Assembly (NCBI RefSeq): GCF_988243305.1 | Contig: NZ_OZ547136.1 | Length of the DNA stretch: 64,000 bases | Reading direction: 5' to 3' (one strand) | Part shown: positions 45,301-48,300 of the stretch, one piece after another | How the letters are laid out: every line of letters starts with the position of its first letter | How positions within the stretch are numbered: the stretch's first letter is position 1 | Made by a program: the position numbers

Positions 45301-48300
45301 ACTGCGTTTATCCGGATGATGTCGCTGTTGCTGACAGTGGTAATACGTTGACGGGGCAATATGCAGTTCGCTGCATAGCGGTCCGACCCCGTACTGCTCA
45401 CGCAGCTTATCCAGCAGTGGCATCATTTTTTCCAGAGGCGGTCGAACTCCGCCTTCGCAAAATAAGCGGAAGCCTGGCGAAGGATATCGTTACTGCGGCG
45501 CAGTTCACGATTTTCACGTTCCAGCTCTTTCAGACGCTGACGTTCAGCGGTGGTGAGCCCTCCATCACCGCCCCCGGTATCCCGCTCATGCTGGCGAACC
45601 CAGACACGCAGAGTCTCCGGCGTACAGCCAATCTTTGGAGCAATGGAACAAATTGTCGCCCATTGTGAGTCATATTCGCTCTGACTTTCCAGAACCATAC
45701 GGACTGCCCGTTGACGGACTTCGGGGGAAAAACGAGTATTTTTAGTCATCCTGTTTACCTCTTTCTCAGGAAGTTTAGTCTCCAGGATTCCCGGGGCGGT
45801 TCACAGTCAGAAATCGAAACGTACTCTCAACAGTTCGCTTAGGCATGGAAGTTTTGCGGCATTCTGGCTACACAATAACAAGGGAAGACTTACTCGTGGC
45901 TGCAACCCTACTAGCTCAAAATTTATTCACACATGGTTACGCTTTGGGGAAATTATGAGGGGATCTCTCAGGACCAGGTATCACCTAGTGTTAATTCACT
46001 TTTAAAAGGAATAATTACTCGTTGTAACGTACTACTCACATGTGCAATTTTACCCGGTGAATTACCTGAACGACTCCATGTAGAATAATCACGAAAACGC
46101 CACGCCCCTAAATTTAAACCTGAACGGAGATTTAAATAATAACTATCAGACGCATAGTCTCCACGATCACTGTTGCCAGAAAAATCATAATTAATAAGAA
46201 TGGCCGGGATACCATTATCCCATTCCTCAGGTGGAATATAACCACGGGCTTCATGCTTTAATATTGCCTGCGGAAAGGTCAGTTTGAGTCGTTGCGCATC
46301 CAGTTCAGGAGTGTATTGAACTTCTGCGAACCATATACGTAAATCGAGACAATTATTTCCCTCTGCTTGCGCCTGTTCCGGCAATGCACTTTTGTTAATT
46401 CCTAAAGTAACTAACTCATCGAGCGAAAAACAGGGGATCAACTGATTCTGCTCATCAGCTTTGAAAGTAACCTTACGTGATGTCAAAGGCGAATCATTGA
46501 CCCATATTTCAACCTCATAACTACCAGGTAGATATGTCATCCCTTTCTCAAAACGAGATAAATCAGCAACAGCTTCTGTATCACCCGACAGGAATGCAGG
46601 GTTAAAGCGCATACCCGCCACTGAACACGCAGGCAAAAGTGTCAGTAGAAGCAGCATACACCACCTCATCTGCTTCTGCCTTGCCATCCTGTGTTCGAGT
46701 TTTCTGAGCTTTAGGTTCATATCCCTGACCTGAGTTGCTTTAACGTTTTAATCTTCCAGGTTTATTGCATCGTTCCCTTTTGCCTGGCCGTTGTGGCACC
46801 GTAATCATTGATAGTTTGATAAGTAATTTCACCGGCTAACGTCACTGGTGAAGACACTGTTACGTCACTTTTCGGTGGAACAAACGCATTAGGTAATTTT
46901 GCCCCTTGCACCCTGATTCCAGTCACCGTCAGATAATAGGGAGAAGGGTTAATGACTCTCAGCTGTTTACCTTCGTATTTAAATCGCAGCATATCCCGTG
47001 CTTTACCAGCTTGAACGGGTAAATTAGTCGGACGGTAAAATAATTTAATTCTGTTTTGTAACGCCAGTTGTAACGTGTTTTTCTGGGTATTCTTCTCATC
47101 CGTTGGCGGAATCGCTTTCACATTCATCCAGAATAATGTTTCGCGATCAGTCGGTAACTGTGATTTACCAATAAACATTATCCTCAATGAGGCTTCTTTT
47201 CGCGTTGGTAACATAAATAAAGGAGGCGTAACCACAAAATCCTGACTTTTTTTACTGCTTTGATTGTCATCAATCCATGACTGGATTAAATAGCTGGTGT
47301 TAGCCCCACCATTCTGTACACTTAGCGTAATTTGCTGACTGTCAGATGGATAAACCAGACGCGTAGAACCAAGACCGAAGCCACCCGCAGCAATAGCATT
47401 GATAGATATGGCGGATAGTAAAAATAGAGCACCGGCCCTTATGATATATTGGGTCTTCAGCAAAGAATTAATGTTTCTATTCGAAAAACATTTATTTTTT
47501 GAAATCCATCTCATACTGCATCCTTGTAGATGAAATTAATTGTAATTACTGATGCATGTCTATTTATTACAAATAAACATGTAATATTAATTTCAGGTTA
47601 CAAGTAACTGTAACCTGAAATTATCTTGCTGTAATTATTCGTACAGCACGACGAAACTTGCCGTTGATTTCACCAGACCTGGTGCAACGGTACTACCGTT
47701 CTGAGCATAGCCCGCGGTAAATGCCGCAGTAAAATCATGAGTGGCTGCATCGCCAGGAATCACGTAGGCTGCTGAAGAACTACTCCCCTGGGGAGTTTGT
47801 GTGTTCAGCTTAATCAGGCCATCAGTTGTCGTGTTTTTAGAATAAATACGAATCCCTACACCCGTAGCTCCCGCTTCGCCAGTACCATCAGCATCAGCAG
47901 CTCCTTCCACTTCATTGGCAAGCGTCTGGTTGGCACCGTCTGCTACGCCAGTAAAACGAAATTCAATATTTTGACTGTCCGTATTGCTACAATCAGTCAA
48001 TTTAATGTTGAAGTCAGTCTGGTTACTGGCACCCGTTGCTTCGGTATCAATGCCCGTGAAAGCGTTAGAAGGTACGACTGGCAGTACCACTTCAATCTGT
48101 TTCGATTCTGTAGCAACCTTACACGTCGCTTTAACCACACGACCAGTAAAGCGGATGTTTCCGCCCATCGCATCGGTGTTGCTATCCATATCGGTGAGTT
48201 TTGGATAATCAACGGTGCTCCAGTCTGTATCCGCACCACCAAATTGTGATGCATCGCCTGGCGCAGCGGTTACCGCAGTTGACATCAGCATACCTGATGC

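What the first reader, a model, noticed from the sequence alone, without database searches (positions are those of the whole stretch)
47592..47619. Perfect 11-bp inverted repeat between the major pilin and chaperone genes
TTCAGGTTACA-AGTAAC-TGTAACCTGAA lies in the 120-bp gap after the major subunit gene. Comparable intercistronic hairpins in pap and fim operons act as partial terminators or mRNA stabilisers that keep major subunit transcript levels high relative to downstream genes.
Basis: partly seen in the sequence, partly recalled or inferred. Interest (0 to 1): 0.4.

Follow-up and report, generated by a model that had tools for sequence, protein, structure and literature searches.

The report
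Conserved RNA hairpin after aufA pilin gene
A strong RNA hairpin sits just after the major-subunit gene (aufA) of the E. coli Auf fimbrial operon and is kept by evolution; it most likely lets the cell hold more pilin message than message for the assembly genes, a well-known trick of fimbrial operons, so it is real but ordinary.

Summary
The inverted repeat is real and longer than reported. It has perfect 15-bp arms (47588-47602 / 47609-47623) and a 6-nt spacer. It is the longest such repeat in the 64-kb window. The genes lie on the minus strand and are aufA (major subunit), aufB (chaperone) and an IS-disrupted aufC, that is the Auf operon between glgP and glpD.

On the sense RNA it folds into a 16-bp hairpin (-19.3 kcal/mol, z -7) that starts 11 nt after the aufA stop codon. 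The same hairpin lies 9-13 nt after the stop in all four auf lineages found: two E. coli allele groups, Citrobacter freundii and an unassigned metagenomic lineage. Three core pairs show compensatory changes. The 12 core pairs have no mismatch in any of 7 sequences. One-sided changes give G·U, not A·C, so the sense transcript is the constrained strand. The arms are 79-96% identical, against 29-60% for the rest of the spacer.

No conserved U-tract follows the stem, and all auf genes are co-induced, so it is not a canonical terminator. My best reading is a 3' decay barrier for aufA mRNA, perhaps with weak attenuation. This is a new member of a known kind. A resemblance of the stem to ERIC-element stems is not supported by the flanks.

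The parts
47588..47623 (-). Hairpin 1, the finding. The 5' arm of the sense RNA is 47623-47609 and the 3' arm is 47602-47588. A G47608·U47603 closing pair makes a 16-bp stem with a UUAC loop (47607-47604).
   Evidence: perfect 15-nt arms; -19.3 kcal/mol, z -7.1. Conserved with covariation in orthologs.
47635..48339 (-). aufA, the Auf fimbria major subunit gene (234 aa). Its stop codon at 47637-47635 lies 11 nt upstream of the hairpin.
   Evidence: ORF. Pfam Fimbrial, 1.4e-21; a 98%-identical protein is named 'Auf fimbriae major fimbrial subunit AufA'; locus lies between glgP and glpD.
46762..47514 (-). aufB, the periplasmic chaperone gene. Its start is 73 nt downstream of the hairpin.
   Evidence: PapD_N 2.8e-41 and PapD_C 1.6e-12.
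47520..47525 (-). Shine-Dalgarno AAGGAT of aufB, inside the conserved block CATC(T/A)ACAAGGATGC. It is not part of the hairpin.
   Evidence: alignment: this is the only other conserved block of the spacer, present in E. coli and Citrobacter.
47555..47581 (-). Hairpin 2, a 12-bp A/U-rich stem found only in the E. coli allele-1 group.
   Evidence: -9.8 kcal/mol, z -3.5; an A-U to G-C swap at its base in L011/L123, but interior mismatches in L012. Absent from B2, Citrobacter and L006.
45968..46720 (-). 5' fragment of aufC (usher), cut off by an IS insertion. The operon downstream of the hairpin is broken in this genome.
   Evidence: PapC_N/Usher. IS3-type ORFs at 44536-45749, an IS10-type transposase ORF at 43437-44654, and the rest of aufC at 41478-43385.

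Best explanation
The repeat encodes a stable stem-loop in the sense aufABCDEFG transcript, placed just beyond the footprint of a ribosome terminating at the aufA stop codon.

Proposed mechanism (inferred). The operon is transcribed through the hairpin from the promoter upstream of aufA. Endonucleolytic cleavage, probably by RNase E in the A/U-rich single-stranded spacer downstream, or decay starting from further downstream, lets 3'-to-5' exonucleases (PNPase, RNase II) remove the aufB-G part. These enzymes stall at the 16-bp stem, which leaves a long-lived monocistronic aufA mRNA. The stem may also pause RNA polymerase or weakly terminate it in some alleles. The outcome is more pilin message than chaperone, usher and minor-subunit message, which matches the subunit stoichiometry of a fimbria.

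Shown: the existence, position, stability, strand and evolutionary conservation of the structure. Inferred: the decay-barrier role and the differential expression.
For: (1) Structure. The stem has 16 pairs; -19.3 kcal/mol, z -7.1. The whole spacer folds at z -6.4.

(2) Orthologs. The hairpin lies at the same place in every auf lineage recovered: E. coli allele-1 variants, the B2/CFT073/Nissle allele, Citrobacter freundii and the L006/L014 lineage. Sense-strand energies stay at -19 to -25 kcal/mol.

(3) Covariation. 93.8% of cells are paired, against 25-48% when partners are slid. Four pairs change on both sides, three of them in the core: U-A to A-U in L006, and two A-U to G-C in Citrobacter, one of which has a G·U intermediate in L006. 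The 12 core pairs have 79 Watson-Crick, 5 G·U and 0 unpaired cells.

(4) Strand. There are 12 G·U cells (about 8 independent events) against 1 A·C. Antisense folds lose 5-6 kcal/mol in B2, L006 and L011.

(5) Selective conservation. The arms are 96/79/88% identical to the window. The aufA coding sequence is 77/72/69% identical and the rest of the spacer is 29-60%.

(6) Position. The hairpin starts 9-13 nt after the aufA stop in all lineages, but 27-73 nt before the aufB start (sequences). It is therefore tied to the 3' end of aufA.

(7) Read-through. aufA-G are co-induced 5.3-6.6 log2-fold by TosR, with one predicted TosR site upstream of aufA.

(8) Precedent. malE-malF, puf and papA 3' protective structures (PMC5927463).
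Against: No RNA data were examined: no 3' ends, half-lives or aufA:aufB abundance ratios. Supplements of three CFT073 expression papers held nothing usable.

Only about four independent lineages exist, so the covariation statistics are modest; 6 to 21 of 500 shuffles reach the observed values.

The stem is A/U-rich, with 4 G-C pairs of 16. The B2 allele has a borderline U-rich tail (AAATTATTTA) that the simple scan calls terminator-like, so some termination cannot be excluded.

In this particular genome aufC is destroyed by IS elements, so any function is moot here.
Confidence: 0.5

Rival explanations
1. Partial intrinsic (Rho-independent) terminator. A fraction of polymerases stop at the hairpin, as reported between papA and papH, so fewer transcripts reach aufB-G.
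For: The hairpin is stable and lies directly after the major subunit gene. The pap precedent is described in PMC6524683. The B2 allele passes the simple terminator scan with 16 pairs and the tail AAATTATTTA. The paralogous elfA-elfD spacer of K-12 has a G+C-rich hairpin with a U-rich tail.
Against: The window allele, Citrobacter and L006 are not flagged. The 8-12 nt after the stem are not U-rich and are not conserved between lineages. The stem is A/U-rich and long, unlike typical E. coli terminators. Downstream genes are induced as strongly as aufA.
Confidence: 0.2
2. Processing module. The hairpin is the stable 3' or 5' structure of a small RNA cut out of the aufA 3' region (like FimR2 from the fimA-fimI spacer), or it is an RNase III cleavage site that separates aufA from aufB-G.
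For: FimR2 is a 35-nt RNase E-dependent sRNA with a stem-loop, located in the equivalent spacer of the fim operon and annotated in K-12. The stem length of 16-17 bp is conserved. MITE hairpins in Neisseria are RNase III substrates (PMC2229807).
Against: There is no sequence similarity to FimR2. There is no conserved single-stranded seed next to the stem, because the flanks are only 29-60% identical. No Rfam family matches. The loops lack GGA motifs. The stem is shorter than the roughly 20 bp usual for RNase III, which I state from memory.
Confidence: 0.12
3. Decayed remnant of an ERIC-like miniature palindromic element that inserted between aufA and aufB. Any effect on mRNA would be a by-product.
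For: A scan of 100,044 species genomes with the auf-derived pattern returned many short ERIC-type elements of Enterobacterales, whose stem is TTCAGGTTGCAG/CTGCAACCTGAA. Nine of 99 hits have flanks matching a bona fide E. coli ERIC at the 99th percentile of the null, where about 1 is expected. Local alignments to ERIC ends gave p about 0.02 for the B2 and Citrobacter spacers. The L006 version is a 66-nt imperfect palindrome.
Against: The auf flanks themselves do not match ERIC flanks (p 0.04-0.57). nhmmer with a real ERIC does not hit auf. The ERIC core is absent. The palindrome is single-copy in E. coli, found only at auf in 767 genomes. Compensatory changes and a mismatch-free core argue for selection rather than decay.
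Confidence: 0.1
4. Double-stranded DNA operator. A dimeric regulator binds the palindrome and controls a promoter for aufB or blocks elongation.
For: It is a perfect palindrome with conserved arms. The window allele folds equally well on both strands.
Against: The distance between the conserved arms is not constant: 6 nt in E. coli, about 10 in L006 and about 12-14 in Citrobacter. Arm changes are pair-preserving, including G·U, which is an A·C mismatch of symmetry at the DNA level. No promoter-like site lies in the spacer on the sense strand.
Confidence: 0.03

Closest known systems
3' protective intercistronic stem-loops: malE-malF REP, puf 'mRNA decay terminator', and the 3' structure of papA mRNA
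   Same: A stable hairpin in a transcribed spacer directly after the gene whose product is needed in excess. It is conserved as a structure and is not followed by a U-tract. The expected effect is a block to 3'-5' exonucleases after downstream cleavage (PMC5927463).
   Different: The sequence is unrelated to REP and occurs once per genome. It is a single 16-bp A/U-rich stem rather than tandem G+C-rich REPs. No decay data exist for auf.
papA-papH partial transcription terminator of the P-pilus operon
   Same: It occupies the same position in a chaperone-usher operon, after the major subunit gene and before the accessory genes, and has the same presumed purpose.
   Different: The auf hairpin has no conserved U-rich tail. 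There is no sequence similarity. In auf the next gene is the chaperone, not a minor subunit.
FimR2, the sRNA from the fimA-fimI spacer of the type 1 fimbrial operon
   Same: It is a hairpin-containing element in the spacer directly downstream of the major subunit gene of a related (gamma-type) fimbrial operon.
   Different: The FimR2 hairpin is weak (-9.2 kcal/mol, z -0.5). It carries GGA motifs bound by CsrA and a single-stranded 5' region. The auf element has none of these and shares no sequence with it.
ERIC/IRU elements in their short form
   Same: The stem core TTCAGGTT(A/G)CA...TG(T/C)AACCTGAA equals the terminal-repeat-proximal stem of short ERIC-like elements in Rahnella, Serratia, Buttiauxella, Pantoea and Dickeya. 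ERICs are transcribed within operons and affect the stability of flanking mRNA (PMC2229807).
   Different: There are no TATAC...GTATA ends, no ERIC core and only a single copy. The flank similarity is not significant.
elfA-elfD (ycbQ-ycbR) spacer hairpin of E. coli K-12, in the fimbrial type closest to Auf
   Same: It holds the same position in the operon type that PMC3559732 calls closely related to Auf and mutually exclusive with it. A strong hairpin follows the major subunit gene.
   Different: The sequence is unrelated: a G+C-rich 9-bp stem (CCCCTCCAG/CTGGAGGGG) with a U-rich tail, which makes it look like a classical terminator.

Membership tests
Intercistronic 3' stabiliser hairpin (mRNA decay barrier) | A stable stem-loop in the transcribed spacer immediately 3' of the stabilised cistron, outside the reach of the terminating ribosome | tested here: met
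   16-bp stem, -19.3 kcal/mol, z -7.1. It starts 11 nt after the aufA stop in the window and 9-13 nt after it in orthologs.
Intercistronic 3' stabiliser hairpin (mRNA decay barrier) | The structure, not only the sequence, is conserved on the sense strand | tested here: met
   Three core pairs show compensatory changes. The core has 0 unpaired cells of 84. There are 12 G·U cells against 1 A·C. Sense energies are constant while antisense energies drop by 5-6 kcal/mol in three lineages. Only about 4 independent lineages are available.
Intercistronic 3' stabiliser hairpin (mRNA decay barrier) | The upstream segment has a longer half-life or higher steady-state level than the downstream segment, and RNA 3' ends lie at the stem | not testable with these tools
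   No read-level RNA data are available. Paper supplements held no absolute levels.
Intrinsic (Rho-independent) terminator | A G+C-rich hairpin followed directly by a run of U | tested here: not met
   The window hairpin is not called by the scan. The tail is AUAUUACA. Citrobacter and L006 are not called either. Only the B2 allele is borderline. The stem has 4 G-C pairs of 16.
Intrinsic (Rho-independent) terminator | Transcription stops there and downstream genes need their own promoter or read-through | tested here: inconclusive
   aufB-G are co-induced with aufA (log2FC 5.3-6.6), which shows read-through. The terminated fraction is unknown.
ERIC/IRU miniature element | A conserved central core, defined by the ERIC1R/ERIC2 primer region | tested here: not met
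   The core is absent from the window and from all auf loci. The core query is valid, since it gives 100% matches at a median of 10 places per E. coli genome.
ERIC/IRU miniature element | Terminal TATAC...GTATA ends and flanks | tested here: not met
   The flank score of auf spacers against a bona fide ERIC gives p 0.04-0.57. nhmmer gives no hit.
ERIC/IRU miniature element | Multiple dispersed copies per genome | tested here: not met
   The palindrome is found only at the auf locus in 767 E. coli genomes. The two places reported per genome are the two strands of the same palindrome.
ERIC/IRU miniature element | Sequence of the stem next to the terminal repeats | tested here: met
   The auf-derived pattern retrieves short ERIC-like elements. 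Nine of 99 hits reach the 99th percentile for ERIC flanks, where about 1 is expected.
REP/BIME | A G+C-rich imperfect palindrome of a conserved consensus, present in hundreds of copies | tested here: not met
   The element is single-copy and A/U-rich. The REP consensus is recalled from memory and was not aligned.
FimR2-like spacer-derived sRNA | A discrete small RNA produced by RNase E, with a functional single-stranded region | not testable with these tools
   Only the analogous position could be checked. There is no sequence similarity, no Rfam match and no conserved single-stranded flank.
Palindromic DNA operator | Fixed spacing and fixed sequence of the two half-sites | tested here: not met
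   The distance between the arms varies from 6 to about 14 nt, and the half-sites change in a pair-preserving way.
Auf fimbrial operon (context) | aufABCDEFG gene order between glgP and glpD, with AufA orthology | tested here: met
   99.8% identity to intact loci with this gene order. A B2 allele is present in Nissle and CFT073. A protein is named AufA. CFT073 c4214-c4207 correspond to aufA-G.

The most novel reading that the evidence does not exclude
The auf hairpin is more than a passive decay barrier. Either it is a domesticated ERIC-type mini-palindrome recruited to set pilin stoichiometry, or it is the stable core of a FimR2-like regulatory RNA released from the aufA 3' region. The second reading would make spacer-derived sRNAs a recurrent feature of chaperone-usher operons.
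Probability: 0.12. Interest if true: 0.5.

Novelty: new member of a known kind. Interest (0 to 1): 0.3.

Why it matters
Auf fimbriae are carried by many extraintestinal pathogenic E. coli, and the auf locus was found in 784 of 5,426 complete genomes here. Their expression is poorly understood. A conserved post-transcriptional element after aufA would explain how one promoter yields excess pilin. It would also need to be kept or mimicked in expression constructs, and it gives a compact, mutable handle (16 pairs with natural compensatory variants) for testing differential decay in a fimbrial operon. The principle itself is long established for pap and other operons, so the gain is incremental.

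Tried and rejected
(1) Rfam scan of the region at E<=10 gave only chance-level hits.

(2) A protein-anchored scan of one genome per species with an AufA alignment found no relatives. A HMMER search of 1.84 billion representatives showed that AufA is one narrow cluster. Covariation depth therefore could not be increased. A metagenome scan anchored on the aufA 3' coding end returned only E. coli alleles.

(3) Is the hairpin a general fimbrial motif? Of 100 genomic matches to the palindrome pattern, none lies after a major subunit gene. The one locus with chaperone and usher genes has the match 2 kb away.

(4) ERIC origin. The stem resembles ERIC-type stems, but the flanks, core and copy number fail.

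(5) DNA operator. Rejected on variable arm spacing and G·U-type changes.

(6) CsrA site. The loops (UUAC, AAAG, UUAU, UUCU) have no GGA.

(7) A stop-codon-spanning stem (47624-47633 / 47642-47651) is not conserved in L011 and was dropped.

(8) Absolute aufA and aufB expression values were sought in the supplements of three CFT073 papers. None was held.

(9) De Gregorio 2005 (the ERIC function paper) is not in the library and is cited only through a review.

Full report
**1. The observation.**
The reported sequence is at 47592-47619. The repeat is longer than stated: perfect 15-nt arms at 47588-47602 and 47609-47623, with a 6-nt spacer. It is the longest perfect inverted repeat with a short loop in the 64-kb window. 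Markov simulations gave maxima of 8-13 nt and 0.17 sites with arms >=11 per window. It lies in the 120-bp gap between two minus-strand ORFs: 47635-48339 (234 aa, Pfam Fimbrial) and 46762-47514 (250 aa, PapD_N/PapD_C). A truncated usher ORF follows at 45968-46720.

**2. The locus.**
Megablast against 5,426 complete E. coli genomes finds the locus in 784 genomes. It occurs as two allele groups, one >=95% identical and one about 75% identical.
- In intact genomes the order is glgP, then seven fimbrial genes, then glpD.
- The roughly 75% allele is the one in Nissle 1917 and CFT073.
- A near-identical protein is named AufA.
- The TosR paper equates c4214-c4207 with aufA-G (PMC5956150).

This is therefore the Auf chaperone-usher operon. 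In the window aufC is split by about 2.6 kb of IS3-type and IS10-type sequence. No complete genome shares that junction.

**3. The structure.**
On the sense (minus-strand) RNA the repeat forms a 16-bp stem with a UUAC loop: -19.3 kcal/mol against -4.2 +/- 2.1 for shuffles. The whole spacer folds with z -6.4. Rfam has no matching family.

**4. Comparative evidence.**
AufA is a very narrow family. Lookups by AufA and AufB relatives and a metagenome scan gave four lineages:
- E. coli allele 1: the window, plus variants L011, L012, L120 and L123.
- The E. coli B2 allele: L002, L008, L009.
- Citrobacter freundii: L003, L004.
- An unassigned lineage: L006, L014.

All of them carry a hairpin 9-13 nt after the aufA stop. 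Sense-strand energies are -19.3, -20.0, -21.0, -25.2 and -19.8 kcal/mol.

On a 7-sequence alignment (A2):
- 93.8% of cells pair, against 25-48% when partners are slid.
- Four pairs change on both sides. Three are in the core: U-A to A-U in L006, and two A-U to G-C in Citrobacter, one of them with a G·U intermediate in L006.
- The 12 core pairs show 79 Watson-Crick cells, 5 G·U cells and no unpaired cells.
- Over all 16 pairs there are 12 G·U cells and 1 A·C cell.

A transition on one side of a pair gives G·U or A·C with equal prior chance. About 8 independent events against 1 therefore points to selection on the sense RNA. Consistent with this, antisense folds lose 5-6 kcal/mol in B2, L006 and L011, while sense energies stay constant.

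The arms are 96, 79 and 88% identical to the window in B2, Citrobacter and L006. The aufA coding sequence is 77, 72 and 69% identical, and the rest of the spacer is 29-60%.

One caveat applies: only about four independent lineages exist, and the shuffle controls are modest (6-21 of 500).

**5. Terminator or stabiliser?**
The simple terminator scan does not call the hairpin in the window, Citrobacter or L006. It does call the B2 allele, on a borderline tail of AAATTATTTA. The bases after the stem are neither U-rich nor conserved.

TosR induction raises aufA, B, C, D and F by 5.3-6.6 log2, and the single predicted TosR site lies upstream of aufA. Transcription therefore reads through.

The hairpin keeps a fixed distance to the aufA stop but a variable distance (27-73 nt) to the aufB start, and it never overlaps the aufB ribosome-binding site. 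This fits a 3' protective structure for aufA mRNA better than a terminator or a translational element. The protective-structure mechanism is described for malE-malF, puf and papA (PMC5927463). Weak termination, as reported for papA-papH (PMC6524683), cannot be excluded.

**6. Other readings.**
*DNA operator.* This is unlikely, because arm spacing varies and the changes preserve pairing.

*FimR2-like sRNA.* FimR2 derives from the equivalent fimA-fimI spacer (PMC9723502). This reading is possible by position only. There is no sequence similarity and no conserved single-stranded flank.

*ERIC link.* This was unexpected. A scan of one genome per species with TTCAGGTTRC-N6-16-GYAACCTGAA returned 100 sites. 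Many of those in Enterobacterales are short ERIC-type elements with this very stem. Nine of 99 hits have ERIC-like flanks at the 99th percentile, where about 1 is expected. The auf spacers, however:
- lack the ERIC core,
- are not hit by nhmmer with a real ERIC,
- have flanks that score p 0.04-0.57, although local alignments gave p about 0.02 for B2 and Citrobacter, and
- are single-copy in E. coli.

Common origin is therefore not shown.

None of the 100 sites lies after a pilin gene. The paralogous elfA-elfD spacer has an unrelated G+C-rich hairpin at the same position. The theme recurs, but the sequence does not.

**7. Verdict.**
This is a real, selectively conserved sense-strand RNA hairpin at the 3' end of aufA. 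It most likely acts as a decay barrier, with at most weak attenuation, and sets the ratio of pilin message to assembly-gene message. It is a new member of a well-known kind. I found no description of it for auf in the papers searched. Functional proof needs RNA 3'-end and half-life data.

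Noticed in passing
window 41478-46720: The usher gene aufC is split into a 5' part (45968-46720) and a 3' part (41478-43385). The insert is about 2.6 kb and carries IS3-type ORFs (44536-45426, 45423-45749) and an IS10-type transposase ORF (43437-44654). None of 5,426 complete E. coli genomes has this junction, so the Auf operon of this strain is probably non-functional.
   Followed up: partly
window 47555-47581 (-): A second A/U-rich 12-bp hairpin (-9.8 kcal/mol, z -3.5) lies downstream of the first. It is present only in the E. coli allele-1 group. Its base shows an A-U to G-C swap in variants L011/L123, but L012 has interior mismatches.
   Followed up: partly
window 47541-47548 and 47630-47637: Two copies of TGTAATTA contain the self-complementary TAATTA. 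They are predicted to pair on the RNA and enclose both hairpins in one domain that begins at the aufA stop codon.
   Followed up: no
window 9023-9052: A perfect 12-bp inverted repeat, AAAACGGGAGGC-ACCTTC-GCCTCCCGTTTT, has A-runs and T-runs on both sides. It looks like a bidirectional intrinsic terminator and is the second-longest short-loop palindrome in the window.
   Followed up: no
window 63511-63596: A weak match to an E. coli ERIC element (nhmmer E 0.05, model positions 1-86). It may be a degenerate ERIC-like repeat.
   Followed up: no
window 47635-48339 (-): AufA (234 aa) is about 50 residues longer than typical major subunits. The Pfam Fimbrial domain covers only residues 62-233, which leaves an acidic segment between the signal peptide and the domain. 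That segment is conserved in Citrobacter and in the L006 lineage.
   Followed up: no
L021-L028 (Neisseriaceae MAG, yak reticulum): At least eight contigs of one genome carry TTCAGGTTGCCT...AGGCAACCTGAA hairpins with variable loops. This looks like a dispersed hairpin repeat family in that organism.
   Followed up: no
L006 1195-1262 and L014 111-178: In the unassigned auf lineage the hairpin is the top of a 66-nt imperfect palindrome (-31.9 kcal/mol, z -8.6). The palindrome begins at the stop codon and is followed by CUAUUUUUC, so it looks more like a terminator or a miniature element than the E. coli versions do.
   Followed up: partly
L010 1440-1461 (E. coli K-12 elfA-elfD spacer): A G+C-rich 9-bp hairpin, CCCCTCCAG-TGTT-CTGGAGGGG, is followed by a U-rich tail. 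It lies after the major subunit gene of the Elf/Ycb operon, the fimbrial type closest to Auf.
   Followed up: partly
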